Positions 1,062-62,991 of a stretch of DNA of 64,000 bases are shown in pieces. The notes under the pieces are model-generated. The model saw only the letters and a program-made list of their open reading frames with translations, searched no databases and was not told the DNA's origin. Where the stretch lies: the NCBI GenBank assembly GCA_930990975.1, contig CAKNRR010000002.1, positions 204 through 64,203 on the forward strand, read 5' to 3'. The position numbers and the translations under genes are program-made. Source of the DNA: an uncultured Clostridia bacterium. Its GTDB lineage: Bacteria > Bacillota > Clostridia > Christensenellales > UBA1242. Each line of letters opens with the position of its first letter. The first letter of the stretch is position 1.

Positions 1062-3806
1062 TTGAAAAATAAAATAAATGAAAAATTTTTATTAAAGTTA
1101 TTAACATTTATTGTATTTTGTTTCTGTTTAGTAGCAGGAATTTGTTTCTTAGGGAATGATAATTTTCAATTTGATAATACAAGCGCATCGGAAGTTTATG
1201 CAAATATAACAATTAAAGTTCAAGTAAAGCAGCCAGGCTCAAATACATGGAAGAATCAATTATTTCTTAATGATGCCGAAGGCAATGCAGTATATTTTGA
1301 AGGACCGATAGCAAACTTAACAGCAAGTTCTGATGAGGAGTTGTATATAGATGGCGACTAAATAGAGGGATCTAGTGTAAAAAATAAAAGCTATTCAGTG
1401 GAAAGTTCGCTTACTATAAATTTACGAGCACGTAGATGGTCTTTTTTAGACACAAATCTTACTTACAGCGTAGTGGTATCTGCACCTGAAGGTAATCAAG
1501 ATAATAATCTTGAGTATATGGAAGTAGGATATATGGCAGATAGCAAAAATGGGAACTCAATTTCTGATTCTATTGAGGGTTCTGGTAATACAAATAATCA
1601 TACGCTTGAAGTTAATTATAGACCATTAACTCATAAAACAGATTTTTATAATGATTCTACACTTTTAGAAACTATTACTCAAGAAAATTTTGCACATTGG
1701 GTTTTCCCTTCAGAAAATCCGACTAAAACAGGGTATACATTTGATTATTGGTATTTTAGTGCGAAATTAAATTCAAAATCCGTAGTGAAAATGCTAAAAA
1801 ATACACTTGGAACCAACAGAAAAGTTGAAGCTCGTTGGAAAGCCAATACATATACAGTGAAATTTAATGGTAATGGAAGTACAAGCGGAAGGATGAGTGA
1901 TCAAAGTTTCACATATGATACTGCACAAAAATTAACAACAAACGCATTCAAAAAGACGGAATATAACTTTTCAGGTTGGGCAACATCTTCAAGTGGAGGG
2001 GTGTCATATAGTGACGGTCAAAGTGTATCAAATCTTACATCAACAAATGGTGGAGTAATAAACCTTTATGCAGTGTGGAAGCCAAACATATATACAATAA
2101 CTTTAGATAGACAAGGGGCGACAAATGGGTCAAGTTCCGTTACAGCAACATATGGGAGTGTAATGCCATCAATAAGTGTTCCAACAAAGACAGGATACAC
2201 ATTCCAAGGCTATTATACAAGTACAAATGGAGGAGGGACAAAATATTACAATTCCAATGGAACGAGTGCAAGAAATTATGATATAGCGAATAGTACAATC
2301 TTCTACGCCTATTGGACACCAATAAGTTATAGTATAAACTTTGACATAGGTAATAATGGTTCATGGCCAAGTTCATCACCAACAAACAATACTCAATATG
2401 ACACGGCATTAAATGTACCAAACCCTAAATCACCAACAGGCTATACTTTCTCAGGTTGGACAGCAAGTGGCAGCAATTTTAATTCAACAACAGCAAGAAT
2501 AGGGACAAGCACAAACAACTGTAATACTACATGGAATGGGACAACAAAGACAAAGAATACATATTTTAAAAACCTATCATCAACCAATAGTGGGAAAGTA
2601 ACAATGACAGCCAATTATACAGCCAATAGTTACACAGTGAGATTCAATCCAAATGGAGGAACAGTATCACAAACGACAAAGAGTGTAACCTATGACAGCA
2701 CCTATGGAACACTACCAACACCAACAAGGACAGGATATAAATTTACAGGCTGGACACTGAATGGAACAACAATAAGCTCAACAACAAAAGTTCAGACAGC
2801 AAGTAATCATACATTGATAGCGCAATGGGAAGCAAATGAATATACAGTAACCTTTGACCCAAATGGCCAAGGAGGGACAGTAAGTCCAACAACCAAGACA
2901 GTAACCTATGATAGCACCTATGGAGATTTACCAACTCCAACAAGAGCAGGATATATATTTATTGGCTGGTATACAAGTGATAATGGAGGAAGCCATGTAT
3001 TATCAAATACAACAGTAAAGACAGCAAACAATCACTTACTTTATGCCCACTGGCAAGATACATGGGCAAACCATACAGAAGCACCAAGCCTAAGAGTGCC
3101 AAGTAATCCAAACAATGCAAGCAATCCATACATAATCGACACACCAGGGAATTTAGCATGGCTAGCAATGCAAGCACAGATAAAACACTTTAGTGGATAT
3201 TTTGAACAAACAACAAATATAGACTTAAGCGGACATAAATGGCTCCCAATAGGCACAAACACATATTCATTCAAAGGTTTCTATGATGGAAAGGGATATG
3301 CAATCACAGGGCTAGAAACTGCTCCAACAACAAATGTATCCAACTCAACCTCAGTCAACTCCTATGTAGGATTATTTGGGAATACCAACGGAGCAAAACT
3401 TAATAACATTTATATTAAAGGTGCAGACATAAAAGGTCATACAAATGTAGGTGGAATAGTAGGTTATGCCAGCGGTTCAACAGTGCTTACAAGCTGTGGT
3501 TTCAGTGGAACAATATCAGCCCAAGCAAATAGCGGAGCATTGATAGGGAACTCAGCTTCAACCACAGTGCAGATGACAGATTGCATAGTTTTCTCAGCAA
3601 ATGTAGACAAGCTTAACTCAGGCTCAGCAACCACGACAAGCACAGTTTATGTACTTAATGGAAAGAAAGGCTATATAGGCTCAAGCTTTACAAACTGGGT
3701 ATTTGTAAGCGGGATGCCATATCCAGTGCCAAAAGGATTGTCTTGGCTTGCACAAGGAGGCGAACAGGCTACTCTAACCGATATACAAAATTGGGTAAAT
3801 AGTTGA
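1062..3806 (+). pseudogene. Large secreted/surface repeat protein (signal anchor, six Listeria-Bacteroides B-repeats, GLUG-like C-domain) split by one in-frame TAA at 1359-1361
   Basis: Track ORFs 1062..1361 and 1398..3806 share a frame (starts differ by 336 nt). Only one stop plus 12 sense codons lie between them. The hydrophobic signal/anchor LLKLLTFIVFCFCLVAGICFLG is only on the 99-aa piece. The 802-aa piece has no signal peptide and no SD before its GTG. Confidence 0.6.
1629..3060 (+). repeat. Six tandem ~70-aa Listeria-Bacteroides repeat (InlB B-repeat / Flg_new-like) modules, coding
   Basis: Recurrent module ...YTVxFNxNGG...[19 protein letters not shown]...W: [58 protein letters not shown]. 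The last two modules are also similar at DNA level. Confidence 0.7.
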
Positions 3807-14802: not shown

Positions 14803-17187
14803 ATGATATTTAAAAAATTTTTCAATAAAGACGCCGATAAGCAAGAATATTTTTCTAAACAATTTAATTTATCACCAAGAATTATTGACCTATTGTTGTC
14901 AAGAGGAGTTAATACAAGTGAAGATATAGAAGAATTTTTAAATCCAAAAAAACTTTATTCTCCTTTTTTGTTGACAGGAATGAAACAACTGATTGATAGG
15001 GTAAAACTAGCAAAAGAACTGAAAGATAAAGTGCTTATTTTTGGCGACTATGATGTTGATGGTGTAAGTGCCACCTCAATAATGATAAAAGCACTAAAAC
15101 AATTTGGAATAAAAGCAGATTTTTATTTGCCAAATCGCTATATAGATGGATATGGACTTACGAATGCAGTTATTGATAAGATAGCTGACCTTTATGCACC
15201 TAATTTAATAATAACAGTGGATTGCGGCATATCTTGTTATCAAGAGGTGGAGTATGCGAAAAATAAAGGGATTGAAATTATAGTTACAGACCATCATGAA
15301 ATACCTGAAATCATACCAGATACAGTGGTTGTCAATGCAAAACTCCCAAATCAAGAATATCCATTTAGAGAACTATGTGGAACTGGTGTTGCATTCAAAT
15401 TTGCGCAAGCCCTGCTTGGAGAAAAGGAAGCAGAGCAGTTTCTTCCAATAGCTGCAATAGCGACAATAGTTGATATTGTTCCACTCGTGGATGAAAATAG
15501 AACAATTGTTGTAAGGGGCTTGAAACTCTGTGAAAGATATTTGCCAATAGGTTTGAAGATGATGTTTAAAGAATACGACATTCCTATAAGCAAACCAAAT
15601 GCAACTGATATATCGTTTAAGATAGGTCCAAAACTTAACGCATCGGGAAGAATGGGGGATGCAACTGATTCATTGAAAGTGTATTTTGAAACCGACCCAG
15701 TAAAGATAAAGGCGTGCCTTGAAAAGATAAAACAGCACAATACGAAAAGACAAGAACTTTGCAATAAAATTTATGAAGATTGTGAAAAAGCTTTAGCAAA
15801 AGTTGATATGACAAAACAGCGAGTGATAACACTTGCTTCTAAGGCATGGGATAAAGGCGTTTTGGGTATTGTTTGCTCAAGACTTGTTGAAAAATACCAC
15901 AAGCCAGTGTTTTTATTTGCTCAAGATGGAGATATTTTGAGTGGCTCTGGTAGAAGCATTGATGATATAAATATTCATGAACTTTTGTCATCGTTGAAAG
16001 ATATTTTAGAAACTTTTGGCGGACATTCAATGGCGGCTGGACTTTCTTTAAAAAGAAGCAATTATGAAACATTTACACAAAAAATAAACTCATTTGCTTT
16101 GAATTCAATAAATGATGAGGTTTTTATTCCAATAAAATACTATGACCAAGATATAACAGAGGAAGAAATAACACCAGAGTTTGTCAAAGAGCTCTCGCTT
16201 TTAGAACCATTTGGATGCAATAATCCTCGTCCAAAATTTAGAATTACATCTCAAGATGTTGAAGTTCTTCCAATGAGAAAATTTCCTCAACATGCGAATA
16301 TAAAGATAGGAAAACTTAATCTTACTTATTTCAACTTTCTTGACAATGTGGTTAAAATTGCTTTCTCAAGAAAGAAATCTTTTATATTCGAATTTCAACC
16401 TAATTCAACAAAAGGTACAATAAGTGAGTTTGATGGTGGCAGTTTTATAATTGAAGAAGCATATAAAAAATTAAACTCAATAGAACTTAATGAACTTGTC
16501 ATTGATGGAAAAGGCGACGCAAAATTTAAGTATTATCCAAAAGAGGAGTTATTATCTTTTGTAGGAGGAACAACCACAACAGTTTTTGGAACATGCTTTG
16601 TGACATATTCATGCCATGATTATGTTGAATTTAATAAAAATTACAACACTCAAGGAATATATAAGTTTGGAATATATGAGGATAAGGAGATTGGTTACAA
16701 CAGTATTTTATTATCTCCAAAAGGAATTGGATGGGCAAAGAATTTTACAAAGATAGTCTTTTTATCTCCAGTCTTGGATTTAAAATATATTTCAGCATTA
16801 AACAAAGTGACAAATGCGGACATCTATTTGCCAGTTGAAAATATGGGAGATCCAAGAAAATTTGCAGGAATTGACTTGTCAAGAAACACTTTTGCAAAAG
16901 TCTATAAAGCACTTGTCGGAAAGAGTGGAAAGCAGATTTATAATGTTTTTGAGTTGTATGACAAATGTGATATAGCAAGTCAAATATCATTTTCAACTTT
17001 TTATTCTGCAATGTTGGTGTTTAATCAACTTGGTCTAATAGAAATTGAAGATGCTGATCAAATTATCATAAAAGTCAACAAAACAAAAAAGAAAGATTTG
17101 ACGGAGTCTAGCATATATAATAAATTGATGTTATTGAAAAATACATTTAAAGGAGAAAATGAAAATGGGAGAAATAGAGCAGGCTAG
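14803..17187 (+). CDS. recJ: Single-stranded-DNA-specific exonuclease RecJ (long form)
   Basis: DHH motifs LIFGDYDVDGVSA, TVDCG, IVTDHH. DHHA1 motif GGHSMAAG. Confidence 0.85.
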   Translation: MIFKKFFNKDADKQEYFSKQFNLSPRIIDLLLSRGVNTSEDIEEFLNPKKLYSPFLLTGMKQLIDRVKLAKELKDKVLIFGDYDVDGVSATSIMIKALKQFGIKADFYLPNRYIDGYGLTNAVIDKIADLYAPNLIITVDCGISCYQEVEYAKNKGIEIIVTDHHEIPEIIPDTVVVNAKLPNQEYPFRELCGTGVAFKFAQALLGEKEAEQFLPIAAIATIVDIVPLVDENRTIVVRGLKLCERYLPIGLKMMFKEYDIPISKPNATDISFKIGPKLNASGRMGDATDSLKVYFETDPVKIKACLEKIKQHNTKRQELCNKIYEDCEKALAKVDMTKQRVITLASKAWDKGVLGIVCSRLVEKYHKPVFLFAQDGDILSGSGRSIDDINIHELLSSLKDILETFGGHSMAAGLSLKRSNYETFTQKINSFALNSINDEVFIPIKYYDQDITEEEITPEFVKELSLLEPFGCNNPRPKFRITSQDVEVLPMRKFPQHANIKIGKLNLTYFNFLDNVVKIAFSRKKSFIFEFQPNSTKGTISEFDGGSFIIEEAYKKLNSIELNELVIDGKGDAKFKYYPKEELLSFVGGTTTTVFGTCFVTYSCHDYVEFNKNYNTQGIYKFGIYEDKEIGYNSILLSPKGIGWAKNFTKIVFLSPVLDLKYISALNKVTNADIYLPVENMGDPRKFAGIDLSRNTFAKVYKALVGKSGKQIYNVFELYDKCDIASQISFSTFYSAMLVFNQLGLIEIEDADQIIIKVNKTKKKDLTESSIYNKLMLLKNTFKGENENGRNRAG

Positions 17188-19297
17188 CAAGGATGAAAAA
17201 ATCATTGAAACTATAAAAAACAAAATAAAAGAAAATTATACATTAACAGAGAAAGAAGATGAAATAATAGCTTATGTATTGGGTTTCAAACTTAATTATG
17301 ATAGACTTAATGTTATAATAGATTTTATAATTTCAGTAAAGTTGGATAAAGAATCTGTGATAGCTTTTTTGGCTTATCAACTTTATAAAATCTATCCAAC
17401 AGAAGGCGATGAACTTTATAAAAAGCTTAATGATGAAGAGAAAAAAATGGTCGATGATTTTAATACCATTAAGGATATAAATAAACTTACATTAAGTGAA
17501 GAGATTGACGATGTTAAGCGAATGTTTATAGTAATGAGCAATGATATGCGAGTTGTTATTATAAAGCTTGCAGGCATTTATTATGATATTTCAGTTATGC
17601 AACTTCCATTAGATACTGACCAATGGAGATTTTTGCGACAAGTTCGCGATATACATGTGCCTTTAGCAGAAAGATTGGGGCTTGATAAATTAAAGCAGAA
17701 TCTGTATGATAATGTAATAAGACTTGAGCATCCAAGTGAATATAAAAGACTAAAAATAGCTATTGAAAATAAAAGAGAAGAAAACGAACAACAATTAGAG
17801 TTGACTAAGAGCAAACTTCAGAAGATTTTGGATGACTTAAAAATAAATGGAGAGATAGTCAGCAGGATAAAACACATTTCATCAATATTTAATAAATTGC
17901 ACAATAAAAGCCTTACACTAGATAAGATTTATGACATCCTTGCTATGCGTGTTATAGTAGACACTGTTGAGGAATGTTATGCTGTTCTTGGAAGGATTCA
18001 TGCTATCTACAAGCCTATGACTGGCCGTGTAAAAGATTATATAGCTAATCCAAAACCAAATGGTTATAAATCGCTTCACACCACAATAATTGTTGAAAAT
18101 CAACATCCATTAGAAGTTCAAATAAGAACAAAAGAGATGCATAGAGAATCTGAGTTTGGTGGAGTATGTGCACACTGGCTATATAAAGAGAAAAAAGATA
18201 AAAAGAATGATTTTGACAATAGATTGACATGGTTTAGAGAAACTATTGAAAATGCTAAAAATATGTCAAATGAGGAGTTTATAGAAACCCTTAAAAGTGA
18301 TTTGTATGATGGCGTTATTATTGTTCAAACTCCAAAAGGACGAGTAATTGAATTTCCAGAAGGAGCAACAGTAATAGACTTCGCGTATTCAATTCATACG
18401 GAAATAGGTAATAGCTGTGTTGGCGCTAAAATAAATGGGAAATTGAAACCAATAACAACAAAACTGTGCAATGGAGATATAGTTGAAATATTGACATCAA
18501 CTCACTCAAAAGGGCCATCTCGAGATTGGCTTAAATATGTGAAAACAAGCGGCGCAAGAAGCAAAATAAAATCTTTCTTCAAAAACGAACTTAAGGATGA
18601 AAATATAAGACTTGGAAAAAGCATGTTTAATCAAGCTGTGCAGGATAAAGGCTTCAATAATAATCAGCTTTTGACAGATAAGTATTTGACAGATATTTTA
18701 AGACGCTATAATATGGAGGATATAGATGAGCTTTATGCCTCTATAGGTTCAGGCTCTCTTTCTGCAGCAAATGTTATTGCAAGATTCATAACACTTTATA
18801 ACAACGATAATGTTCAATTGCCTAAAATTGAAAATGTTGTTCATTTAAAGAGAAACAAAGATGGTGTACTTGTTGATGGCGATAGTGGTATGCTTGTCAG
18901 GTTTGCTGGCTGTTGCAGCCCAATTGAAGGCGATGACATCATTGGATATATTTCAAGAGGAAGAGGTGTTACAATTCATAGAAAGAATTGCTCAAATATT
19001 CAATACCTTGAGCCAGAACGATTGATTGAAGCACAATGGCAAGTTAAAGAAGATGCGACATTCGGTGCTACAATAAAAGTTATAGCGGTTAAATCAGATA
19101 ATAATATTGGAAAGATTACAAATCTTATAACTGGATTAAAAATCAATATAAAGGGATTTGAAGCCAAGGATGTCGGTGATTCGTTTATATGTTCATTACG
19201 AATAGAGGTAAAGAATAAAGCCGAACTTGATAGTGCAATAACAGCAATACGCAATCTAAAGAATGTCACGAGTGTATTTAGGAGTGAAAAATGGTAA
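17159..19297 (+). CDS. relA: Long RelA/SpoT homologue: intact (p)ppGpp synthetase, TGS and ACT domains, degenerate HD hydrolase domain
   Basis: Synthetase motifs GRVKDYIANPKPNGYKSLHTTI and EVQIRTKEMHRESEFGGVCAHWLYKE. TGS motif VQTPKGRVIEFPEGATVIDFAYSIH. The N-domain aligns to the HD domain but carries AFLAYQLYK and KLAGIYYDISV where HD/ED and DRLHN are expected. Confidence 0.85.
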   Translation: MKMGEIEQASKDEKIIETIKNKIKENYTLTEKEDEIIAYVLGFKLNYDRLNVIIDFIISVKLDKESVIAFLAYQLYKIYPTEGDELYKKLNDEEKKMVDDFNTIKDINKLTLSEEIDDVKRMFIVMSNDMRVVIIKLAGIYYDISVMQLPLDTDQWRFLRQVRDIHVPLAERLGLDKLKQNLYDNVIRLEHPSEYKRLKIAIENKREENEQQLELTKSKLQKILDDLKINGEIVSRIKHISSIFNKLHNKSLTLDKIYDILAMRVIVDTVEECYAVLGRIHAIYKPMTGRVKDYIANPKPNGYKSLHTTIIVENQHPLEVQIRTKEMHRESEFGGVCAHWLYKEKKDKKNDFDNRLTWFRETIENAKNMSNEEFIETLKSDLYDGVIIVQTPKGRVIEFPEGATVIDFAYSIHTEIGNSCVGAKINGKLKPITTKLCNGDIVEILTSTHSKGPSRDWLKYVKTSGARSKIKSFFKNELKDENIRLGKSMFNQAVQDKGFNNNQLLTDKYLTDILRRYNMEDIDELYASIGSGSLSAANVIARFITLYNNDNVQLPKIENVVHLKRNKDGVLVDGDSGMLVRFAGCCSPIEGDDIIGYISRGRGVTIHRKNCSNIQYLEPERLIEAQWQVKEDATFGATIKVIAVKSDNNIGKITNLITGLKINIKGFEAKDVGDSFICSLRIEVKNKAELDSAITAIRNLKNVTSVFRSEKW

Positions 19298-20694
19298 AAT
19301 CTAATAAGGAAGAGTTTATAATTGAATTGCAAGACTTATGCAAACTATTTAATTTAGATATGGACAAGTCTGAGATAGAACATATAGAAGTGCAATCTCA
19401 AAATAAAATTACAAATGATTTCAAGTGTTGTATAGATGGGACTGAAAAAATCTATTCTTATTCTTATGTCATAGATCAATCATTAAGTGATTTACGAAAG
19501 AAATCTTTAAGAAAAAGAATGGTCAAAAATCATTTATATTTGATATTGTCAAAATCTTTAAATAAGACTCTTCCTTGGGGATCATTGACAGGAGTTCGCC
19601 CAACAAAATTTGCTAGAGATTTAATAGAATATGGCGAAATGAAAGAGCATCTAGTTTCAGAAGTTTTGCAAAGAGATTATTATGTTTCAAAAGATAAGGC
19701 AGAACTTGTTGCAGCTATTTTAAAGAATCAAAAATGTATAATAAGAAATGATAATCTTATTGATTTGTACATAAATATACCAATCTGTCCAACAAGATGT
19801 CTATATTGTTCTTTTATTTCAAGTGAAATAGAAAGGGTGAAAGATAAAGTTGATTTATACATAGATTGCCTAATCAAAGAGATTGAAGCGGTAAAGGAAA
19901 TTATAAAAAACAAGGCTTATATAGTAAGAACGATTTATATAGGTGGCGGCACTCCTTCAGTTTTAAGTGCAGAACAATTGGATAGGTTGTTAAACCGAGT
20001 TAATTTTCCAGTTAGTGAATTTACTGTTGAATGTGGACGAGCTGATACAATAACAGAAGAAAAATTGGATGTATTAAAAAGACATAATGTAACCAGACTT
20101 TCAATAAACCCACAGACATTTTGTGAAGCAACTTTAAAGAGAATAGGACGCAAGCAAAAGAATATAGAGATATTCAATGCCTACTCAAAAGCATTAGAAA
20201 GGGATTTTGTGGTAAATATGGATGTCATCGCTGGCTTGCCTGGAGAAAAGTTTGGCATTTTTAAAAGGTCAATAAACACTCTTTTGGAATTATGGCCAAA
20301 CAATATCACAGTTCATACTTTGTCTGTAAAAAATGGCGCTCTACTAAAGGATAATCAAAGCTTATTGGATGATAAAGACATAAATAAAATGGTGGATTTT
20401 GCGGAAAAGACATTGATTGAAAAAGGTTATAAGCCATATTATTTATACCGTCAAAAAAATCAACTTTGCGGACTTGAAAATGTAGGTTATTTCAGAGATG
20501 ATAGTGTTTGCATATTCAATGTAGACAGTATGGAAGAAACAAACACTGTTATAGGGCTTGGCGCGGGTGCTATGAGCAAACGAGTTTTTAATTTAGAGCA
20601 TAGAATAGAAAGACAACCAAATGTCAAATTTATAGAAGATTATATAGCAAGAATTGATGAAATGATTGAAAAGAAAAAAGAGTTTTATAAGTAA
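19291..20694 (+). CDS. HemN/HemZ-like radical SAM protein (oxygen-independent coproporphyrinogen oxidase family)
   Basis: CPTRCLYCSF radical-SAM cluster motif and GGGTPS. The long N-terminal extension resembles the HemZ subgroup. Overlaps the rel stop. Confidence 0.6.
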   Translation: MVKSNKEEFIIELQDLCKLFNLDMDKSEIEHIEVQSQNKITNDFKCCIDGTEKIYSYSYVIDQSLSDLRKKSLRKRMVKNHLYLILSKSLNKTLPWGSLTGVRPTKFARDLIEYGEMKEHLVSEVLQRDYYVSKDKAELVAAILKNQKCIIRNDNLIDLYINIPICPTRCLYCSFISSEIERVKDKVDLYIDCLIKEIEAVKEIIKNKAYIVRTIYIGGGTPSVLSAEQLDRLLNRVNFPVSEFTVECGRADTITEEKLDVLKRHNVTRLSINPQTFCEATLKRIGRKQKNIEIFNAYSKALERDFVVNMDVIAGLPGEKFGIFKRSINTLLELWPNNITVHTLSVKNGALLKDNQSLLDDKDINKMVDFAEKTLIEKGYKPYYLYRQKNQLCGLENVGYFRDDSVCIFNVDSMEETNTVIGLGAGAMSKRVFNLEHRIERQPNVKFIEDYIARIDEMIEKKKEFYK

Positions 20695-41678: not shown

Positions 41679-41694
41679 CTAAAACATAATAAAA

Positions 41695-41953
41695 GCTATG
41701 ATGAAAGAGTAGTAATAGAATTGATTTATCAAAGAGAGTTTGTCCTTGGCTGAAAGACAGATATAATAGATTTTATGAATTCACTTTCTAGCTACATTTA
41801 TGAAGTTTTGCATTGTTGTAATAAAGTGTAAAATGCGTAGTTTATGTCGTTATGCCTGCGTAAATGGTTTTAATAAGGATTGATAAAATCAATTAAAGTT
41901 AGGTGGTACCACGAAAAGTATTCTTTCGTCCTAATAGGAAGAATACTTTTTTT
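41695..41953 (+). promoter_or_regulatory. T-box riboswitch leader, Phe specifier (UUC)
   Basis: GA/K-turn ATGATGAAAGAGTAG. Stem I AGAGAG...TGGCTGAAAG. Specifier gaaTTCA (~41780). T-box AAAGTTAGGTGGTACCACG. Terminator AGTATTCTT...AAGAATACTTTTTTT. Confidence 0.8.
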
Positions 41954-42134: not shown

Positions 42135-43160
42135 ATGCTTAGTCAAGATTTGGCGAATATAAAAGAAGAAGTTTTAGAGAGTATAGAAAAGGCAAATGAT
42201 TTAAAAGAACTTAATGAGATAAGAGTAAGAGTTTTCGGGAAAACAGGGCTTATAACAAACATTTCAAAGGGTATGAGAGATGTATTGCCTGAAGATAGAC
42301 CAAAGGTTGGGGCTTTAATAAATGAGGTTAAAACCGCAATTGAGTGTAAATTGCAGGAGAAGATTGAACTACTTGAAAATATAGAACTCAATAAGAAACT
42401 TGAAGAAGAAAAAATAGATATTACAGAACCTTCTAAGGATAGCGAACTTGGGGCATTGCATCCAATCACTGATGTAATTGACAGATTGACAGATATTTGT
42501 GTTGATATGGGATTCTCGGTTGTTGAAGGCCCAGAGATAGAAACAGATTATTACAACTTTGAAGCTATGAATATACCTAAAAACCATCCTTCAAGAGATA
42601 TGCAAGACACTTTGTTTATAACAGAAGACATTTTGTTAAGATCACAAACATCAGCAGTTCAGGCTCGTGAAATGGAAAAGAGAAAGCCACCATTTAAAAT
42701 TGTATGCCCAGGTAAAACTTATAGAAATGACAATGATGCAACTCATAGCCCAGTGTTCCATCAAATGGAGGGGTTGGTTGTTGATGAAAATATCTCTATG
42801 GCAGACTTAAAAGCTATGCTTACAATATTGATGAAAAGGTTGTATGGAGAAGATACAAAAATAAGATTTAGACCTTCTTTCTTCCCATTCACAGAACCTA
42901 GCATAGAAGTTGATGTTTCATGTCCAAGCTGTCATGGTAAGGGATGTTCTTTATGTAAAGGAACAGGTATGCTTGAGCTTTTGGGCGCTGGAATTGTTAA
43001 CCCTAAAGTCTTAGAAATGTCCGGCATAGATAGTAAAAAGTATCGTGGATTTGCGTTTGGCTTTGGTTTAGATAGAACATCTATGATTTTGAACAGTATA
43101 AATAATATTAAAAATCTTTATAGAAATGATATAAGATTTTTAGAACAAATGAAAAAATAA
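42135..43160 (+). CDS. pheS: Phenylalanine--tRNA ligase alpha subunit
   Basis: FRPSFFPFTEPS and GFAFGFGLDR. Confidence 0.95.
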   Translation: MLSQDLANIKEEVLESIEKANDLKELNEIRVRVFGKTGLITNISKGMRDVLPEDRPKVGALINEVKTAIECKLQEKIELLENIELNKKLEEEKIDITEPSKDSELGALHPITDVIDRLTDICVDMGFSVVEGPEIETDYYNFEAMNIPKNHPSRDMQDTLFITEDILLRSQTSAVQAREMEKRKPPFKIVCPGKTYRNDNDATHSPVFHQMEGLVVDENISMADLKAMLTILMKRLYGEDTKIRFRPSFFPFTEPSIEVDVSCPSCHGKGCSLCKGTGMLELLGAGIVNPKVLEMSGIDSKKYRGFAFGFGLDRTSMILNSINNIKNLYRNDIRFLEQMKK

Positions 43161-43208
43161 AAACATTAACAAAAAAAAGATTTTGGATAATTGAATTAAG
43201 GAGAAAAT

Positions 43209-45608
43209 ATGAAAGTAACATATAAATGGATAAAAGATTTTGTAGATGTTAATGCAACTCCAGAAGATATTGCAAATAGATTGACAGATGCTGGAATGGA
43301 AGTTGAAGAAATCATATATCAAAATGAACATTTGCATGATGTTGTCGTTGGTAAGATTTTGAAAATAGAAAAACATCCACAGGCTGATAAATTGGTGGTT
43401 TGCCAAGTTGATATTGGGAAAGAAATAACTCAAATTATAACGGCAGCAACGAATGTTTTTGAAGGAGCTGTTGTTCCTGTAAGTTTGCCTGGGGCAGATT
43501 TGGTTAATGGCATAAAAATCCAAAAAGCCAAAATGCGTGGAGTTGAATCTTGTGGTATGTTTTGCTCAGGAGAAGAGCTTGGTATAGATGAAAATTATTA
43601 TGAAGGAGCTGGAGTCAACGGAATTCTTATCCTTCCAAACGATTTAAAAATTGGACAAGCTATCGACAAAGCATTGATGCTTGATGATGTGGTTTTTGAT
43701 ATAAATATAACACCTAATAGAGCCGATTGCATGAGTATTATTGGTATAGCTAGGGAAGTGTGTGCATTATATGGTCTTGAAATGAAGAAAGTTAACTTCA
43801 GTTATGACATAGATGTATACGCAAAAGACACAGTTAGAGATTATGTTAATGTTGAAGTTAACACGCCTAATTGCTTAAGATATATGGCTGCAGCTATAAC
43901 AAACTTAAAAATTGAAAGATCTCCATTATGGATGAGGGCAAAATTGAATGCCGTAGGAATCAAGCCAATCAATACTATGGTAGATATTACAAATTATGTT
44001 TTGATTGAAATGGGACAGCCACTTCATGCTTTTGACCAAGAATTGATTGGTGGTAGAAAAATTAATGTTCGTCAAGCCAAAATAGGAGAGGAAATAGAGG
44101 TATTAAATCATAATACTTATAAGCTTGATGAAAGTGTGATGGTTATCGCTGACCAAGAAAAACCAATGGTTATAGCAGGAGTTATTGGAGGAACAAACTC
44201 TTGTATTAATGACAATACAAAAACTTGTGTTTTAGAAGGAGCTGTTTTTGACTTAAAATCTATAAGAATAACAAGCAGAAAAATAGGAGTTCGTACAGAT
44301 TCATCTGCAAGATACGCAAAGGGAGTCAATGTCGCAAATGCAGAACTTGGTATAGTAAGAGCACTACATTTTGTATCTAAAATCGGTTGTGGTAAGGTTG
44401 TAAGGGGAATGATTGATATTTCTTCTGTCAAAAATGAAGAGAGGAAGATTGAGGTGTCTGTTGATTTGATTAATGATATTCTTGGCTTGCAGATAGATAG
44501 TAAGATTATGGTTAAATTATTGAATAATCTTGGAATTAAAACTGTATGCTATGGAAAGAAGCTTCAATGTATAATACCTCCTTATAGAGAAGATCTTGAA
44601 AATGATTATGACATAGCTGAAGAGGTTATAAGATTGTATGGCTATAGTGTCTATGATAATATGCAATATGATCTCTTTAAGAATGCCAAAGTTACCGAAG
44701 GAGAACATCATCCTAGACTTCTTATGGAAAGAAAGTTTAGAAACGCATTGGTAGAAAGAGGTTTTTATGAAAATGTTTCTTACACTTTAGTTCCAGAAGA
44801 GTCTCCTAAAAAATTGTTGTTGGATGATATTAGAGCAAATATAATAAAAATTGCAAACCCAATAAGCGAAGATATTGCTTGCATGAGAACTTCTTTGGCC
44901 CATTCATTATTTTCTAACATAGCTTATAATATAAGTGTTGGAAACAGAACAATGAAGATTTTTGAATGTGGAAGAGTTTATTTGACTGAAGAATTGCCTT
45001 TAGTAAAGCTTCCAAATGAAATAAATATGTTAGGCTTGGCTGTCTGTGATGAAGGATACGATTTTTATATTTTGAAAGGTGTTGTAGAATCGCTTTTAAG
45101 CAAAACCTCTGCTACTTATAAATTGGAAAGATCAAAACAACCATTCTTGCATCCTGGAATATCTGCTGACATTATAATCGGAGATAAAGTGATAGGAAGC
45201 TTTGGGAAAATTCATCCACAAGTTGCTAAGAATTATGACATTCCAAACAATGTGTTCTACGCAGAACTTAATGATGATTTCTTGATTGAGTTGGAGCCTG
45301 TTAAACGAGTATTTAAAAATATTTCTAAATATCCTATTGTAGAAAGAGATTTGGCCGTTGTGGTGGATGAGAAGGTTACAGCTGAAGAAATGTTGTCAGC
45401 AATCAAATCTTCATGTGGTAATTTGTATTACAATGCAAGCTTATTTGATGTTTATAGAAGTGCTAGTGTTGGCGAGAATAAAAAGAGTTTGGCATTCAAA
45501 ATCAAGCTTGTAGATATGAATAAAACTTTGACAGATGAAGAAGTTAATAAAGTGATGCAAAAGATATTAAAGTCATTTAATTATAGATTTGGAGCTGTTT
45601 TAAGATGA
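43209..45608 (+). CDS. pheT: Phenylalanine--tRNA ligase beta subunit
   Basis: tRNA-binding domain (VVGKILKIEKHPQADKLVVCQVD), then B3/4, B5 and FDX-ACB order. ~800 aa. Confidence 0.95.
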   Translation: MKVTYKWIKDFVDVNATPEDIANRLTDAGMEVEEIIYQNEHLHDVVVGKILKIEKHPQADKLVVCQVDIGKEITQIITAATNVFEGAVVPVSLPGADLVNGIKIQKAKMRGVESCGMFCSGEELGIDENYYEGAGVNGILILPNDLKIGQAIDKALMLDDVVFDINITPNRADCMSIIGIAREVCALYGLEMKKVNFSYDIDVYAKDTVRDYVNVEVNTPNCLRYMAAAITNLKIERSPLWMRAKLNAVGIKPINTMVDITNYVLIEMGQPLHAFDQELIGGRKINVRQAKIGEEIEVLNHNTYKLDESVMVIADQEKPMVIAGVIGGTNSCINDNTKTCVLEGAVFDLKSIRITSRKIGVRTDSSARYAKGVNVANAELGIVRALHFVSKIGCGKVVRGMIDISSVKNEERKIEVSVDLINDILGLQIDSKIMVKLLNNLGIKTVCYGKKLQCIIPPYREDLENDYDIAEEVIRLYGYSVYDNMQYDLFKNAKVTEGEHHPRLLMERKFRNALVERGFYENVSYTLVPEESPKKLLLDDIRANIIKIANPISEDIACMRTSLAHSLFSNIAYNISVGNRTMKIFECGRVYLTEELPLVKLPNEINMLGLAVCDEGYDFYILKGVVESLLSKTSATYKLERSKQPFLHPGISADIIIGDKVIGSFGKIHPQVAKNYDIPNNVFYAELNDDFLIELEPVKRVFKNISKYPIVERDLAVVVDEKVTAEEMLSAIKSSCGNLYYNASLFDVYRSASVGENKKSLAFKIKLVDMNKTLTDEEVNKVMQKILKSFNYRFGAVLR

Positions 45609-52000: not shown

Positions 52001-53035
52001 TTATTGATTTATTTTTACTTTATCTGCTACATCTTTTCTCATATCTTCACTTATAGCTGCATAATGCTTCTTTGTTGTGTTGACATCTTTATGTCCTAAA
52101 ACATCTGCAACAATATAGATATCATGGGTTTCTTTATAAAGATTTGTGCCAAATGTGCTTCTTAGTTTATGTGGAGATATTTTTTTTAAAGGTGTTGCAA
52201 TTTGAGCGAATTTTTTAACAAGATTTTCAACCGCGCGTATAGATATTCTTTTGTTTTGCAAAGATATAAACATTGCATTTTCGTCTTCAGGAAGATTTAA
52301 AGTAGCCCTTTTTTCTAACCATGTTTTGAGTGCAAGAGCGACTTCTTTAGAAAAATAAAGTGTTGTCTGGTTTCCGCCTTTTCTAGTGACCAAAAAGGCA
52401 TTTTGTGAGAAATCAAAACTTTCAATATTTAATCCGACAAGCTCTGATATACGAATCCCAGTTCCTAAAAATAAAGTAATGATGGCATTATCTCTTTCAA
52501 AAGTGTTTTTGTTGTATTGTTGTTGGTGCTTAGAAAACTCGCAAGGATTTTCAACGGCGTTCATCATTCTGCTGACCTCGTTATTTTCAAGTCTTATGAT
52601 TTCTTTATTGTGTAATTTAGGAGTGTCTATTTTGCTGACTACATTTGATTCTATCATATCATGATTAAATAAGTACTTGAAGAAACTTCTTAAAGATGCA
52701 AGTTTTCTTGCTTTCCCTCGTTCATCATTCTTATATTGTTTGTCGTCTAATTGATAGAAAGACAAATATGACAAATATTGTTCTATGTTTCTTGCTTTGA
52801 GGGTGTTTAAGTCATTTAATGTTATTTCTATTTCTTTTTTATGAAAAACGAATTGTGATAAGTAATTATAGAAAATAAACAGGTCCATTGAGTAGTTGTA
52901 TCTCGTAAGTGATGAAGTGTTGCTTTCTATACCAATAAAAAAGTCAAGACAGTAGTCGGGGAGTCTTTCAGTGTATTTAGACATTTTTAATCTGTTTTGT
53001 AAATCTCGTTTTTCGTAAAAACTTATCTTTTTCAT
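52001..53035 (-). CDS. Tyrosine recombinase, XerS-like architecture
   Basis: Catalytic region GTGIRISEL, VTRKGG, HKLRSTFGTNLY, LGHKDVNTTKKHY (R-H-R-Y). The N-terminal LPDYCLDFF...SSLTRYNYSMDLFIFYNYL resembles the XerS N-domain pattern. Confidence 0.75.
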   Translation of the reverse strand: MKKISFYEKRDLQNRLKMSKYTERLPDYCLDFFIGIESNTSSLTRYNYSMDLFIFYNYLSQFVFHKKEIEITLNDLNTLKARNIEQYLSYLSFYQLDDKQYKNDERGKARKLASLRSFFKYLFNHDMIESNVVSKIDTPKLHNKEIIRLENNEVSRMMNAVENPCEFSKHQQQYNKNTFERDNAIITLFLGTGIRISELVGLNIESFDFSQNAFLVTRKGGNQTTLYFSKEVALALKTWLEKRATLNLPEDENAMFISLQNKRISIRAVENLVKKFAQIATPLKKISPHKLRSTFGTNLYKETHDIYIVADVLGHKDVNTTKKHYAAISEDMRKDVADKVKINQ

Positions 53036-55884: not shown

Positions 55885-56122
55885 GACCCCTTTTAGCGAT
55901 TTTTGTCAATACAAACAGCAAGAAAGTTTATCATATACCCCTTTTCCCTACAAATTTTATGCCCCTATTATTTAATTTCATTTTAAAACTCACCTATTAT
56001 CAAATTTTTGATTTTTATATAATTATGGAGTTGCTCTAATTAATGCTTATGCCTACTTAGTAATTTATTACATGTAGAGTCTCTATTAAAAAACAAGCTT
56101 ATAAATTTGAGCTTGTTTTTTT
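55885..56122 (+). ncRNA. Candidate small RNA with three C-rich motifs, ending at an orphan terminator (speculative)
   Basis: GACCCCTTTTAGCG (~55885), ATACCCCTTTTCCC (~55935), GCCCCT (~55961). The terminator at 56087-56122 has no track ORF (60 aa or longer) within ~250 nt on either side. No convincing promoter found. Confidence 0.2.
56087..56122. terminator. Bidirectional rho-independent terminator in the region with no track ORF
   Basis: AAAAAACAAGCT-tataaatttg-AGCTTGTTTTTTT. Confidence 0.7.
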
Positions 56123-56385
56123 GTAACTTACTTTAAAATTTGTCTAAACCTCATCACACATTATAATGCCATATCGCTTTTTATGTAAATTTGGAGCAAT
56201 TGATGATATAATTGACTTCATTTGTTCTTTTATAATAAAGAAGAATTATTCATTCCCCTGCTTTCTATTTTCGATTGCACTTTTCTTATATGTTGGTATG
56301 GAAAAATAATCTTGATATATTGGGATTTTTCACTAATTGATATAATTCTTTTTGTTATATAACTTATAATCGATCTTTATTTGTT

Positions 56386-56973
56386 TCATACTACTTTTGT
56401 TCTGAGTAAAAATGCATAGTTTTTCAATTCTCTCCTATATTGTTTATAATTAGGCACAAATTGTTCAACTAAAGCCCAAAACTTTTTTGAGTGATTGAAT
56501 TCTATACCATGACATAGTTCATGCAAAATAATATATTTTATTATATCTAAAGGTAAAATGATTATTTTCCAATTTAAGCTCATATTCTTATGATAGTCTA
56601 AACTACCCCATATTCGAACGGAGTTCATTATCCTTAAATTTTTGAATTGTAAATTAAGTCGCAATGACATTTCTTCCACTATCTTTTTTATATCATTGTC
56701 AAACGCAGATTTGTAAAAATCAATTTTATTTCCATCAAATTTTATAGGAGTATTATAAATGTAAACATAATTTTCAAAGTCGTATTGAGATCTTTTATTA
56801 TGTAATTCTTCTATAGACTTCAATTGTTTTTTGATCCACTTATTCTTCGAAATAACAAAATCGTCTATAATATCTTTAGAGATATTTCTGGGAGCATTTA
56901 CAATAACTTCTCCGCTGCTATTTATCCTTATAGAAAGTCTTTTAATTTTAGCCCTTTTTAATATGTATTCCAT
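56386..56973 (-). CDS. DUF45 / YgjP-like M48-family metal-dependent hydrolase
   Basis: IKRLSIRINSSGEVIVNAP N-terminus and the zinc motif ILHELCHGIEFNHSKKFW (HExxH). Confidence 0.7.
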   Translation of the reverse strand: MEYILKRAKIKRLSIRINSSGEVIVNAPRNISKDIIDDFVISKNKWIKKQLKSIEELHNKRSQYDFENYVYIYNTPIKFDGNKIDFYKSAFDNDIKKIVEEMSLRLNLQFKNLRIMNSVRIWGSLDYHKNMSLNWKIIILPLDIIKYIILHELCHGIEFNHSKKFWALVEQFVPNYKQYRRELKNYAFLLRTKVV

Positions 56974-57019
56974 AGCTATTATTATAGCCTCAAACTATCA
57001 AAAAATCAAAGTATTTTAG

Positions 57020-57040
57020 CTATTATGCAATACATAATAG
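57020..57040. promoter_or_regulatory. Palindrome CTATTATG-caata-CATAATAG in the divergent DUF45 / PadR-fusion intergenic region (candidate operator)
   Basis: 8-bp arms read directly, ~24 nt upstream of the -35 of the PadR-fusion promoter. Confidence 0.35.
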
Positions 57041-57063
57041 TAAATAAAAATTTTGCAAAATAG

Positions 57064-57092
57064 TTGACTAAAATTGTATATTGCATTATAAT
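57064..57092 (+). promoter_or_regulatory. Sigma-A-like promoter for the PadR-fusion gene
   Basis: TTGACT, 17 nt, TATAAT. Confidence 0.5.
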
Positions 57093-57109
57093 CATTTTAA
57101 GAGGTAAAT

Positions 57110-59005
57110 ATGGAGTTTTATGCCAAAGGTCAATTATCTTTTTTGATATTAACTTGTTTGCTCGAAAGAGATTTCTATGGGCTTGATTTTATAAGTGAGA
57201 TATATAATAAAAGCAATGGGCGCATAGAATTAAAAAAGCCTAGTGTTTATTCTAACCTAACCAGAATGGAAAAACAAGGTTATGTTTCATCCTATTTAAA
57301 AAGTAGTGATGTTGGACCTAATAGAAAATATTATTCTATTACTGAGAAAGGAAGAGGTTTTTATAAAGAACTTCAGGAGTATTTTGCAAGAAATAAAATA
57401 GATGTTTTTAGAGATTTCCAAGACGAAGAAGATGTAAGTAATAAATCAGTAAATTTGAAAACTTCTATTTTTGGAAATAAAGATTATACTCAAGCAAGTA
57501 TAGAAGAAGATGAAGAAAACAATGAAGAAATAAATAGTTATATTGAAGAGGAAGCTGATAGCGATTATTTTGATTTCTCAAATTTGAGTAATGATCAGTC
57601 TGACAAAAAACAAGACAATAAAAGCGAAGTTATTGAAAAAAGTGAAACTCGTGAAATTGTTTCATCTTCAAATGATTCCCCTGCTCCTAGCACTATAATG
57701 AGTGAAAGTTTCGAGGAAAAGAATGTTCAAGTTCAAGAAGAAAAATATGATAAAACTACAGTTGATTCAGGGAATAATACATATTCAATAAGATCATTGT
57801 TATCTAATAAAAATAATGATGAAAATGCTTCTGATAAAAGCTTGATTGAAAGCAATGAAAACTCTAATGTGGCAGAAGATACTTCAAACAATAAGCAACA
57901 AGAAGAGAAAAAGGATGATGGAGTTTTCTTAAGCGATAAAACAATTAAAGAATATAACAAAAGACTGTATGATATATCAAAAGATATTAACAAATATAAA
58001 AGAAAAAGAAGTTTTGCAGAAGATCAAATGTCTTTTACTGTCGAGTCGCCTTTAGCTGAGTCAAATGAAAGAACCAAGGCGAATATTGAGGAATTTAAGT
58101 CTTCTATTTTGGAGAATAAGGGTAAGATATCAACAGAAAATAATAATTATGATTTTGCAAAACAAATGTCTTACAGATATAGAAATAATGCCAATGTTAG
58201 AGAGGATACTTCCCCTATTCAAAACAACTATTATCAAAAACCTACGAATAACATACAGAACGAAAGTGCACCACAAGATGACGGAAAATTTATAACTAAT
58301 CGTATAGAGGTGTCTCAGATTGAAAGAGCTAAAAAAATAGAACCTCCAAGGCTAAAAATTGTTCCAGAAACCTCTTCAAGAGATAGTTATAAGATGCCAC
58401 CTCCTAAAAGAGATGTAAATATTGACCCTTCTCATAAAGAAATATTGTCAAAGTTATATTCAAAAACAAAAAATTCTGATGCTATGGATATAAGAGAAGA
58501 TGCTCTATATGACTATGGAGATTTACAAGAATTTTATAAAGATCAGAACATTGAATTTAGCGTTTATAAAAAGCCTGCAGAAAAGAATGAACATAACACA
58601 AATAAGCTCTATTTAATAGTTTCTTTGATAACTTTCTTTGTAGCAAGCGCTATGTCAGCTATCTTGTATACAATTCTTTATAATACATCTTTGTTAAATA
58701 GCTCAACAACATTTTTATATATCTTGCTCCCAGCATTATTATTAATTGATATTGCTTGGAAGTTCTACAACTACAAAAAATATCTAGGTTGGCTACCTTC
58801 TCAAATGTTGCCACAATGGAAAATTTGGGCTATAACATTTTTATTAATTGGATGTGTAGTAGGTCTTAATTTTATATTTGGTTTAGCACCTTCAACATTT
58901 GCACAATTTGCAACAACAACATTATTACCTATTGTTATAATATTTGTTGTTATGCCACTAAGATATTATGTTAAGAGATATTTACTTATTAAATATTGGA
59001 AATAA
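57110..59005 (+). CDS. PadR-family winged-helix domain fused to a ~400-aa disordered linker and a C-terminal multi-TM domain
   Basis: N-terminus LILTCLLERDFYGLDFISEI...PSVYSNLTRMEKQGYVSSY...RKYYSITEKGRGFY (PadR). D/E/N/S/K-rich low complexity follows. The last ~130 aa hold four hydrophobic helices. Confidence 0.7.
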   Translation: MEFYAKGQLSFLILTCLLERDFYGLDFISEIYNKSNGRIELKKPSVYSNLTRMEKQGYVSSYLKSSDVGPNRKYYSITEKGRGFYKELQEYFARNKIDVFRDFQDEEDVSNKSVNLKTSIFGNKDYTQASIEEDEENNEEINSYIEEEADSDYFDFSNLSNDQSDKKQDNKSEVIEKSETREIVSSSNDSPAPSTIMSESFEEKNVQVQEEKYDKTTVDSGNNTYSIRSLLSNKNNDENASDKSLIESNENSNVAEDTSNNKQQEEKKDDGVFLSDKTIKEYNKRLYDISKDINKYKRKRSFAEDQMSFTVESPLAESNERTKANIEEFKSSILENKGKISTENNNYDFAKQMSYRYRNNANVREDTSPIQNNYYQKPTNNIQNESAPQDDGKFITNRIEVSQIERAKKIEPPRLKIVPETSSRDSYKMPPPKRDVNIDPSHKEILSKLYSKTKNSDAMDIREDALYDYGDLQEFYKDQNIEFSVYKKPAEKNEHNTNKLYLIVSLITFFVASAMSAILYTILYNTSLLNSSTTFLYILLPALLLIDIAWKFYNYKKYLGWLPSQMLPQWKIWAITFLLIGCVVGLNFIFGLAPSTFAQFATTTLLPIVIIFVVMPLRYYVKRYLLIKYWK

Positions 59006-59032
59006 AAAATCTCTAAAATTAGAGATTTTTTA
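59004..59032. terminator. Bidirectional terminator between convergent genes
   Basis: AAAAAATCTCTA-aaat-TAGAGATTTTTT. Confidence 0.7.
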
Positions 59033-59623: not shown

Positions 59624-59921
59624 ATTATATAATATTAAATTTAAAAAGATATTATGCTTAAGATTTATTTCGCTTTATAATAAAAACTATATGATATTAT
59701 GATTTTATTATCATAAAATTTAAAAAATTCTGACGGATTTAAGTGGTATGACTCATTCTGTCACATAGTATGCAAGAAAATGTCAGTACCGCACAAATAA
59801 GGTCGTAGCTCTGCATGGTGATGTGTTATAAATTAATAAAATCAATAATTCTGCAAAGCTCTAATCAATAAAATATAATTTTATTTTAGTAAAAGGAAAT
59901 TATCTGTATGGGTTAAATGAA

Positions 59922-61848: not shown

Positions 61849-62991
<1,143 letters not shown>

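What the first reader, a model, noticed from the sequence alone, without database searches (positions are those of the whole stretch)
17159..19297. Long RelA/SpoT homologue with an intact synthetase but a degenerate HD hydrolase domain
- The synthetase, TGS and ACT regions look canonical.
- The N-terminal domain still aligns to the HD fold.
- Where Firmicute Rel proteins carry the His-Asp dyad and the following acidic pair (..FLHDVVEDT..), this protein reads AFLAYQLYKIY.
- Where ..KLADRLHNMRT.. is expected, it reads KLAGIYYDISV.
- The earlier conserved His region (..GEPYxxHP..) is also not recognisable.
- This is the RelA-type pseudo-hydrolase state known from Gammaproteobacteria. Firmicutes normally rely on one bifunctional Rel as the only (p)ppGpp hydrolase.
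- If this is the only long RSH, alarmone turnover must use another enzyme.
Basis: partly seen in the sequence, partly recalled or inferred. Interest (0 to 1): 0.55.

Follow-up and report, generated by a model that had tools for sequence, protein, structure and literature searches.

The report
Rel stringent factor with dead hydrolase
This gut Clostridia bacterium carries the usual stress-alarm enzyme Rel with its alarm-making half intact but its alarm-destroying half catalytically dead, a state known from E. coli RelA that arose here independently, so some other, still unidentified enzyme must clear the alarm signal.

Summary
ORF 17159..19297 (+), probably starting at 17165, encodes a full-length long RelA/SpoT homologue. 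Its synthetase, TGS, helical/RIS, zinc-finger and ACT modules are intact.

All seven core hydrolase residues are gone:
- H53 lies in a 13-residue deletion.
- FLHDVVED reads FLAYQLYK.
- KLADRLHN reads KLAGIYYD.

This is not an error or a pseudogene:
- 134 of 134 relatives at 65% identity or more share the state.
- The helical scaffold is under purifying selection and is modelled with high confidence.

The gene sits in the recJ-rel-hemZ-rpsO-pnp position. A relative with an intact HD domain occupies the same position, so this is the Firmicute Rel orthologue decayed in place. It keeps the RXKD motif of bifunctional Rel rather than the EXDD of RelA, and it is not a member of the proteobacterial RelA family. 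It is therefore a convergent RelA-like enzyme.

A second, independent decay was found at another locus in related low-GC Clostridia.

About 84 kb around the gene holds no small hydrolase, second RSH or Nudix gene, and a whole-genome census was not possible. A small alarmone hydrolase gene sits next to rel in one related lineage, which is a lead only.

The parts
17159..19297 (+). rel gene: long RSH, Rel[hS]. 712 aa as listed; the likely true start is ATG 17165, giving 710 aa.
   Evidence: ORF list. TIGR00691 530 bits. P0001 is identical at 710 aa. GGAG lies 9 nt upstream of 17165.
17159..17314 (+). Fast-evolving N-terminal remnant (residues 1-52), corresponding to HD helices alpha1-alpha3. It contains the site of the 13-residue deletion that removed the substrate loop and His53.
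   Evidence: MAFFT and hmmalign. dN/dS about 0.54 and 35% mean identity in the clade. AF2 models helices with pLDDT above 90.
17315..17743 (+). Pseudo-HD core (residues 53-195). The fold is kept and the active site is lost.
   Evidence: Pfam HD_4 54 bits with no PF01966 hit. dN/dS about 0.18. The model's N-terminal half matches the B. subtilis Rel NTD 8acu_B with TM 0.77.
17363..17395 (+). AFLAYQLYKIY, in place of the canonical FLHDVVEDT (H77, D78, E81 and D82 all replaced).
17564..17596 (+). KLAGIYYDISV, in place of KLADRLHNMRT (D144 becomes G, N148 becomes D, T151 becomes V).
17744..18298 (+). Synthetase domain (residues 196-380) with intact catalytic motifs: SRIKH, YDILAMRVIV, RVKD (the RXKD type) and LEVQIRT.
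   Evidence: PF04607 128 bits. Invariant columns in A1. Motif census. Lowest dN/dS, 0.11.
18317..18496 (+). TGS domain (residues 387-446), including the conserved DFAYSIH His that reads the tRNA 3' end in RelA and Rel.
   Evidence: PF02824 81 bits. H413 is invariant in A1. The role of this His is from established knowledge of RelA-ribosome structures.
18539..18817 (+). Alpha-helical / ribosome-intersubunit (AH-RIS) region.
   Evidence: PF19296 41 bits.
18911..18991 (+). Zinc-finger domain motif CCSPIEGDDIIGYISRGRGVTIHRKNC.
   Evidence: C585/C586, H607 and C611 are conserved in A1. Aligned to E. coli RelA [27 protein letters not shown].
19055..19282 (+). ACT/RRM domain.
   Evidence: PF13291 46 bits.
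14803..17187 (+). recJ, directly upstream and overlapping the listed rel start. It marks the ancestral Firmicute recJ-rel locus.
   Evidence: TIGR00644 473 bits. The same adjacency is seen for intact P0146 and P0149 and for degenerate P0135 and P0136.
19291..20694 (+). hemZ-like radical SAM gene. Its ATG overlaps the rel stop by 7 nt, so it is probably co-transcribed and translationally coupled.
   Evidence: TIGR03994 446 bits. Sequence.

Best explanation
This is the orthologue of the bifunctional Firmicute stringent factor Rel, in a lineage of uncultured, spore-forming, low-GC gut Clostridia. In that lineage the HD hydrolase active site has been erased in place, while the helical HD scaffold has been kept.

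**Predicted function (inferred).** The protein should work as a monofunctional (p)ppGpp synthetase that depends on the ribosome and on deacylated tRNA:
- The TGS, AH/RIS, ZFD and ACT modules dock on a stalled ribosome and read the uncharged tRNA.
- This releases the synthetase, which transfers pyrophosphate from ATP to GDP or GTP.
- The pseudo-HD domain no longer binds Mn2+ or cleaves the 3'-pyrophosphate. It is retained as the structural and allosteric partner of the synthetase domain, as in E. coli RelA.
- Alarmone removal must then be done in trans by an enzyme encoded elsewhere. The most likely candidate is a small alarmone hydrolase, and otherwise a Nudix-type enzyme.

**What is shown and what is inferred.**
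- Shown here: loss of all catalytic residues, conservation of the state across the clade, purifying selection, synteny, and intact synthetase and C-terminal motifs.
- Inferred: enzymatic monofunctionality, ribosome dependence, and the existence of a trans-acting hydrolase.
For: **Active site lost.**
- 0 of 7 core HD residues are kept and a 13-aa deletion covers His53.
- Pfam PF01966 (HD) does not hit this protein or its degenerate relatives, but it does hit the intact relatives.

**Stable state, not decay of the gene.**
- 134 of 134 relatives at 65-100% identity share the state.
- dN/dS is about 0.18 for the pseudo-HD core, against 0.11 for the synthetase.
- The synthetase-to-C-terminus part diverges at the same pace as neighbouring recJ and hemZ.
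- The AF2 model has mean pLDDT 89.7, with N-terminal helices above 90. Its best structural matches are RelA, SpoT and B. subtilis Rel.

**Synthetase and sensor intact.**
- Catalytic and substrate residues are invariant.
- The motif is RVKD.
- The protein aligns with ribosome-bound RelA (5iqr, 5kpv) and with Rel over the TGS-to-ACT region.

**Orthology.**
- The gene order is recJ-rel-hemZ-rpsO-pnp.
- The same order holds for intact P0146 and for degenerate P0135 and P0136.

**Independent of RelA.**
- It scores below the PRK10872 cut-off.
- EXDD-type sequences join the tree far away.
- Only the C-terminal half of the HD region aligns to E. coli RelA.

Against: - No biochemical data exist; loss of hydrolase activity is inferred from residues only.
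- The partner hydrolase was not found. About 84 kb around the gene and +-6 kb around 24 relatives hold no SAH, SAS, second RSH or Nudix gene.
- None of the 120 listed SAH homologues shares a longest contig with a query-clade rel.
- dS is near saturation for most pairs, so the dN/dS values are rough.
- The tree is neighbour-joining with moderate support (67-72%) for the deeper clade.
Confidence: 0.85

Rival explanations
1. The organism has no dedicated (p)ppGpp hydrolase of the RSH type at all. Alarmone levels are then set only by tight control of the synthetase plus non-specific decay, by Nudix enzymes, phosphatases or dilution.
For: - No SAH, second RSH or Nudix gene lies in about 84 kb around the gene or near 24 relatives.
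- No listed SAH homologue shares a contig with clade members.
- HD decay has recurred in related lineages, so loss seems to be tolerated in this group.
Against: - From established knowledge, loss of the only hydrolase is lethal or strongly counter-selected when an active synthetase is present (E. coli spoT in a relA+ background; B. subtilis rel with SAS genes).
- Less than roughly 5% of a genome of unknown size was inspected.
- An SAH family exists in related low-GC Clostridia.
Confidence: 0.12
2. It is one half of a RelA/SpoT-like paralogue pair. A second long RSH with an intact HD domain, encoded elsewhere in the same genome, supplies hydrolysis.
For: - Intact long RSHs at about 40% identity (P0164, P0160) fall near the degenerate clade in the tree.
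- They are not recJ-linked.
Against: - P0164 shares its locus with a degenerate orthologue (P0153) in a closely related organism, with neighbouring genes 70-78% identical. The P0164 type therefore looks like the single Rel of another lineage, not a co-resident paralogue.
- No second RSH was seen in any fetched DNA.
Confidence: 0.1
3. The N-terminal domain has gained a new activity or ligand (neofunctionalisation) rather than being a passive pseudo-enzyme scaffold.
For: - The replacement motifs are themselves well conserved within the clade at 65% identity or more (aFl.YQlyKv; KL.GIYYDIS).
- The domain is under purifying selection.
Against: - More distant degenerate relatives carry quite different residues at these positions (YEYK, LGRK, CQID, LPRV and others), so there is no shared new motif.
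- No polar or metal-binding constellation replaces the lost one.
- Conservation is highest on the half that contacts the synthetase domain, as in RelA (PMC3153485).
Confidence: 0.08
4. The degenerate HD domain is an artefact (sequencing or assembly error, frameshift) or the gene is a decaying pseudogene.
For: None beyond the unusual sequence.
Against: - The ORF is uninterrupted.
- An identical protein occurs on at least 29 independent contigs.
- 134 relatives share the same state.
- dN/dS is well below 1 in every domain.
Confidence: 0.01

Closest known systems
Bifunctional Rel of Firmicutes (B. subtilis Rel, S. equisimilis RelSeq, S. aureus Rel)
   Same: - Same domain order.
- RXKD synthetase motif.
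- recJ-rel locus.
- 30-33% structural-alignment identity to the B. subtilis and S. aureus Rel chains, and an NTD fold match with TM 0.77 to 8acu_B.
- By synteny it is their orthologue.
   Different: - All metal-binding and catalytic HD residues are lost, and the substrate loop is deleted.
- It is predicted to have no hydrolase activity.
RelA of beta/gamma-proteobacteria (RelA[hS])
   Same: - Long RSH with a retained but catalytically dead HD domain and an active, ribosome-dependent synthetase.
[quoted passage not shown]
   Different: - Independent origin, with no sign so far of a SpoT-like duplicate.
- RXKD rather than EXDD.
- Below the RelA equivalog cut-off.
- The HD remnant is shorter, with a 13-aa deletion.
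- Firmicute synteny.
Split SAS + SAH systems and subfunctionalised pairs (Moraxellaceae RelA[hS]/SpoT[Hs]; Treponema denticola SAS+SAH; Corynebacterium glutamicum SAH)
   Same: Synthesis and hydrolysis are carried by separate polypeptides (PMC3153485, PMC10434055, PMC5954133). An SAH gene directly upstream of rel exists in a related Clostridia lineage.
   Different: - No partner hydrolase has been identified for this genome.
- In the related lineage the SAH accompanies a Rel whose HD domain is still intact.

Membership tests
Long RSH (RelA/SpoT family, TIGR00691) | HD_4 + RelA_SpoT synthetase + TGS + AH/RIS + ZFD + ACT architecture, scoring above the family cut-off. | tested here: met
   Pfam domains. 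TIGR00691 530.1 bits against a cut-off of 499.2. Foldseek top hits are RelA, SpoT and Rel.
Bifunctional Rel[HS] | Mn2+ ligands H53, H77, D78 and D144, the catalytic E81-D82 dyad, and N148 (RelSeq numbering). | tested here: not met
   0 of 7 present. H53 lies in a 13-aa deletion. The others read A/Y, Y/K, G and D.
Bifunctional Rel[HS] | RXKD motif in the synthetase domain. | tested here: met
   RVKD at residues 290-293.
Bifunctional Rel[HS] | Measured (p)ppGpp hydrolase activity. | not testable with these tools
   Needs an enzyme assay.
Proteobacterial RelA (NF008124 / PRK10872 equivalog) | Score above the equivalog cut-off, or placement in the RelA clade. | tested here: not met
   426.2 bits against a cut-off of 728. 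EXDD-type sequences join the NJ tree only at the 119-sequence level.
Proteobacterial RelA | EXDD motif in place of RXKD. | tested here: not met
   RVKD.
Proteobacterial RelA | Catalytically degenerate HD domain that keeps its fold. | tested here: met
SpoT (NF008303 / PRK11092 equivalog) | Score above the equivalog cut-off, with an intact HD domain. | tested here: not met
   437.5 bits against a cut-off of 947. The HD domain is degenerate.
Ribosome-dependent stringent factor | Conserved TGS His, AH/RIS region, zinc-finger Cys/His and ACT/RRM domain. | tested here: met
   Activation by starved ribosomes itself is not testable here.

The most novel reading that the evidence does not exclude
A whole radiation of spore-forming, low-GC gut Clostridia has repeatedly discarded the Rel hydrolase: at least twice, at two different loci. 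These bacteria would have no RSH-type (p)ppGpp hydrolase at all. Alarmone turnover would then rest on a different, so far unrecognised enzyme or on synthetase control alone. That would overturn the rule that a (p)ppGpp synthetase is always paired with an HD-type hydrolase in free-living bacteria.
Probability: 0.12. Interest if true: 0.85.

Novelty: new variant of a known kind. Interest (0 to 1): 0.5.

Why it matters
**Why it departs from the textbook.** In Firmicutes the textbook picture is one bifunctional Rel that is the only (p)ppGpp hydrolase. Its hydrolase is needed to survive the activity of the cell's own synthetases.

**What was found.**
- A large set of uncultured gut Clostridia has a Rel frozen in a synthetase-only state. 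It comprises 134 protein clusters at 65% identity or more, plus about 13 more distant 50%-identity clusters.
- This is convergent with proteobacterial RelA but came about without the RelA/SpoT duplication.
- A second, independent loss occurred in a neighbouring lineage.

**Consequences.**
- It gives a natural experiment on why a dead HD domain is kept, presumably for allosteric coupling to the synthetase.
- It points to an unidentified route of alarmone degradation in these bacteria.
- It shows that public annotation of these proteins as "bifunctional ... pyrophosphohydrolase" (MBP3345193.1, MBQ8908967.1) is probably wrong.

**Limit.** The finding falls short of a surprise in kind, because monofunctional long RSHs and separate small hydrolases are both known.

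Tried and rejected
- **RSH domain scan of held DNA.** I searched for a second RSH-family gene with an HMM of intact HD domains and with the synthetase domain. The targets were all six-frame ORFs of the window, 24 related loci and later loci. Only rel itself matched, plus one SAH in L036-L039.
- **Neighbour annotation.** Pfam annotation covered about 84 kb: the window, 10 kb to the left and 5 kb to the right. No Nudix, HD_4 or GppA-type candidate appeared. The only other HD protein is RNase Y.
- **Paralogue idea.** The nearest intact sequences in the tree, P0164 and P0160, are not recJ-linked. However, P0153, a degenerate protein, occupies the P0164 locus in a close relative. That argues for orthologues in another lineage, not co-resident paralogues.
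- **SAH lead.** The 197-aa SAH upstream of P0302 was used as a query. Matching the longest_contig value linked SAH and Rel clusters only for P0302 and P0288, and never for a query-clade Rel.
- **Census.** A genome-wide census was not possible.
- **Literature.** Three full-text searches and two RSH census papers (PMC3153485, PMC7229694) gave no description of an HD-degenerate Rel in Firmicutes.
- **Taxonomy.** It could not be taken below "uncultured Clostridia bacterium". One SAH relative is labelled Christensenellales.


Full report

ORF 17159..19297 on the + strand encodes 712 aa. A GGAG lies 9 nt before the second in-frame ATG at 17165. The identical public protein P0001 is called from that ATG (710 aa, at least 29 contigs), so 17165 is the more likely start.

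Domain searches give the following:
- Pfam finds HD_4 (only 54 bits, residues 56-175), RelA_SpoT (128 bits, 235-346), TGS, AH/RIS and ACT_4.
- NCBIfam TIGR00691 (RelA/SpoT family) scores 530 bits, above its cut-off.
- The RelA and SpoT equivalogs fall far below theirs, 426 against 728 and 437 against 947.

The motif replacements are confirmed in several ways:
- HMMER alignments to solved Rel structures place FLAYQLYK under FLHDVVED and KLAGIYYDISV under KLADRLHNMRT.
- MAFFT and hmmalign show that the GEPYxxHP region lies in a 13-residue deletion.
- BLASTP against P0146, the closest intact relative found in the same gene neighbourhood, aligns only residues 114-208. It shows the same KLAG/KLAD replacement.

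None of the seven core residues (H53, H77, D78, E81, D82, D144, N148, RelSeq numbering) survives.

**2. Is it a stable biological state?**

The first protein search returned 120 clusters at 65-100% identity, all about 700 aa.
- With the members of the P0001 cluster added, 134 of 134 sequences keep 0 or 1 of the seven residues. The replacement motifs are themselves conserved (aFl.YQlyKv; KL.GIYYDIS).
- Codon-level comparison of 21 related genes gives these dN/dS values:

| Region | dN/dS |
|---|---|
| N-terminal remnant (1-52) | about 0.54 |
| Pseudo-HD core (53-195) | 0.18 |
| Synthetase | 0.11 |
| TGS-AH | 0.16 |
| ZFD-ACT | 0.11 |

- dS is close to saturation for most pairs, so these values are rough.
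- The synthetase-to-C-terminus part diverges at about the same pace as the neighbouring recJ and hemZ genes.
- An AlphaFold2 model built on 64 sequences has mean pLDDT 89.7. The N-terminal helices are above 90.
- Foldseek returns ribosome-bound RelA, full-length SpoT and B. subtilis Rel. The N-terminal half matches 8acu_B with TM 0.77.

This is a maintained protein with a folded but catalytically empty HD domain. It is not an error or a pseudogene.

**3. Are the rest of the parts intact?**

In the 64-sequence alignment the query shares these invariant positions:
- the synthetase residues equivalent to RelSeq R241, K243, K251, D264, R269, E323 and Q325;
- the TGS His in DFAYSIH;
- the zinc-finger Cys/His in CCSP...HRKNC.

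The charge motif is RVKD. That is the RXKD type of bifunctional Rel, not the EXDD of RelA.

**4. Where does it come from?**

- The host is a low-GC (about 31%) spore former. It carries spoIIAA/AB-sigF, spoVA and yunB, and a T-box leader.
- The closest genomes are gut MAGs labelled "uncultured Clostridia bacterium".
- The gene order is dnaG-sigA-(Zn-ribbon)-recJ-rel-hemZ-rpsO-pnp.
- The same secDF-recJ-rel-(MBL)-radical SAM-rpsO order surrounds P0146, whose HD domain is intact (40% identity).
- recJ-rel adjacency also holds for intact P0149 and for degenerate P0135 (51%) and P0136 (43%).

The gene is therefore the orthologue of canonical Firmicute Rel, decayed in place.

In a search of 50%-identity representatives, 13 of the 17 nearest full-length clusters are also degenerate.

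A neighbour-joining tree was built only from the synthetase-to-C-terminus region:
- The query clade has 100% bootstrap support.
- Adding P0135 and P0138 gives 99%.
- A 27-sequence group with 67% support contains 25 degenerate, 1 partly degenerate and 1 intact sequence.
- EXDD-type (RelA-like) sequences join far away.

**5. A second, independent loss.**

- P0164 has an intact HD domain. It lies in a different locus: ABC transporter, MBL, LytB, BcrAD_BadFG, DUF2229, rel, gpsA, PCRF.
- P0153 keeps 0 of 7 residues and lies in the same locus in a related organism.
- The flanking proteins are 70-78% identical between the two, yet the two Rel proteins are only 41% identical.
- GILHDLIEDTD is replaced by AIIFPFAKLNN, and KLADRLNNMQT by KSAQILDFARK.
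- Within the P0164 family, 30 of 115 members show partial losses, often of the E81-D82 dyad.

Erosion of the HD site is thus recurrent in this part of the Clostridial Rel tree.

**6. What degrades the alarmone?**

This is the key open point.
- An HMM of intact HD domains and the synthetase domain found no other RSH-family ORF in the 64-kb window or in +-6 kb around 24 relatives.
- Pfam annotation of about 84 kb shows housekeeping genes only. There is no Nudix and no HD_4 gene, and the only other HD protein is RNase Y.
- In one related lineage (P0302, intact HD), a 197-aa small alarmone hydrolase gene with intact HP, HD, ED and D..N motifs ends 6 nt before rel.
- This SAH family has at least 708 members, some labelled Clostridia or Christensenellales.
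- By the longest-contig fingerprint, none of the 120 listed SAH clusters lies on a contig shared with a query-clade Rel.

Whether the query genome has an SAH, a second long RSH or neither could not be determined with the capped tools.

**7. Mechanism proposed.**

The protein should be a monofunctional stringent factor that depends on the ribosome and on deacylated tRNA. Its pseudo-HD domain would serve as the structural and allosteric partner of the synthetase, as in RelA[hS]. [quoted passage not shown] The same pattern is seen here. Hydrolysis would be supplied in trans.

- Shown here: residue loss, conservation, selection, synteny and intact motifs.
- Inferred: the enzymatic behaviour and the existence of a partner.

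**8. Comparison with what is known, and novelty.**

It works like RelA but fails the RelA membership tests (equivalog score, EXDD motif, tree position). It fails the defining catalytic test of bifunctional Rel while passing the tests for synteny, motif type and family.

Two census papers (PMC3153485, PMC7229694) and three full-text searches gave no report of an HD-degenerate Rel in Firmicutes. GenBank calls clade members "bifunctional ... pyrophosphohydrolase".

I rate it a new variant of a known kind: a convergent, repeatedly evolved Rel[hS] in gut Clostridia. Interest is moderate (0.5). It would rise sharply if a census showed that no RSH-type hydrolase exists in these genomes.

Noticed in passing
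window 56000..64000: GC skew of the + strand is positive up to about 58 kb and negative after about 60 kb. Gene orientation flips there from + to - (RNase Y, tgt, queA, ruvB). The cumulative-skew maximum suggests a replication terminus.
   Followed up: no
window 52001..53035 (-): A Xer-like tyrosine recombinase lies about 7 kb from the skew switch. Its best NCBIfam hits are XerS, XerC and XerD, all below their cut-offs. It could be the chromosome-dimer resolvase, or a phage-type integrase next to serS.
   Followed up: partly
window 41689..41936 (+): A T-box leader (Rfam RF00230, 93.9 bits) lies upstream of pheS/pheT (42135..45608).
   Followed up: no
window 17159..17187 and 19291..19297: The recJ stop overlaps the listed rel start, and the rel stop overlaps the hemZ ATG by 7 nt (ATGGTAA). 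recJ-rel-hemZ is probably one translationally coupled operon.
   Followed up: partly
L036 6674..7267 (also L037-L039): A 197-aa small alarmone hydrolase gene (HD_4 + HD, catalytic motifs intact) ends 6 nt upstream of an intact long RSH in a related low-GC Clostridia lineage. This is an SAH-rel operon.
   Followed up: partly
L040 10001..12097 compared with L033 8776..10932: Two related organisms share the same locus, with neighbouring genes 70-78% identical. Their Rel proteins are only 41% identical, and one has lost the HD site. After HD loss the whole protein seems to have evolved faster in that lineage, unlike in the query clade.
   Followed up: partly
L028 8993..9592: In the lineage with intact HD (P0146), an MBL-fold hydrolase gene lies between rel and the radical SAM gene. 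It is absent from the window and from the P0135 locus.
   Followed up: no
window 1398..3806 (+) and 57110..59005 (+): An 802-aa protein with Flg_new repeats, and a 631-aa protein with only an N-terminal PadR domain. Both are unusual architectures without a clear function.
   Followed up: no
P0167, P0181, P0219, P0375, P0383, P0396 (protein hits): Several long-RSH relatives of 470-610 aa start after the HD domain. They may be contig-edge fragments, or RSHs that have lost the HD domain entirely.
   Followed up: no
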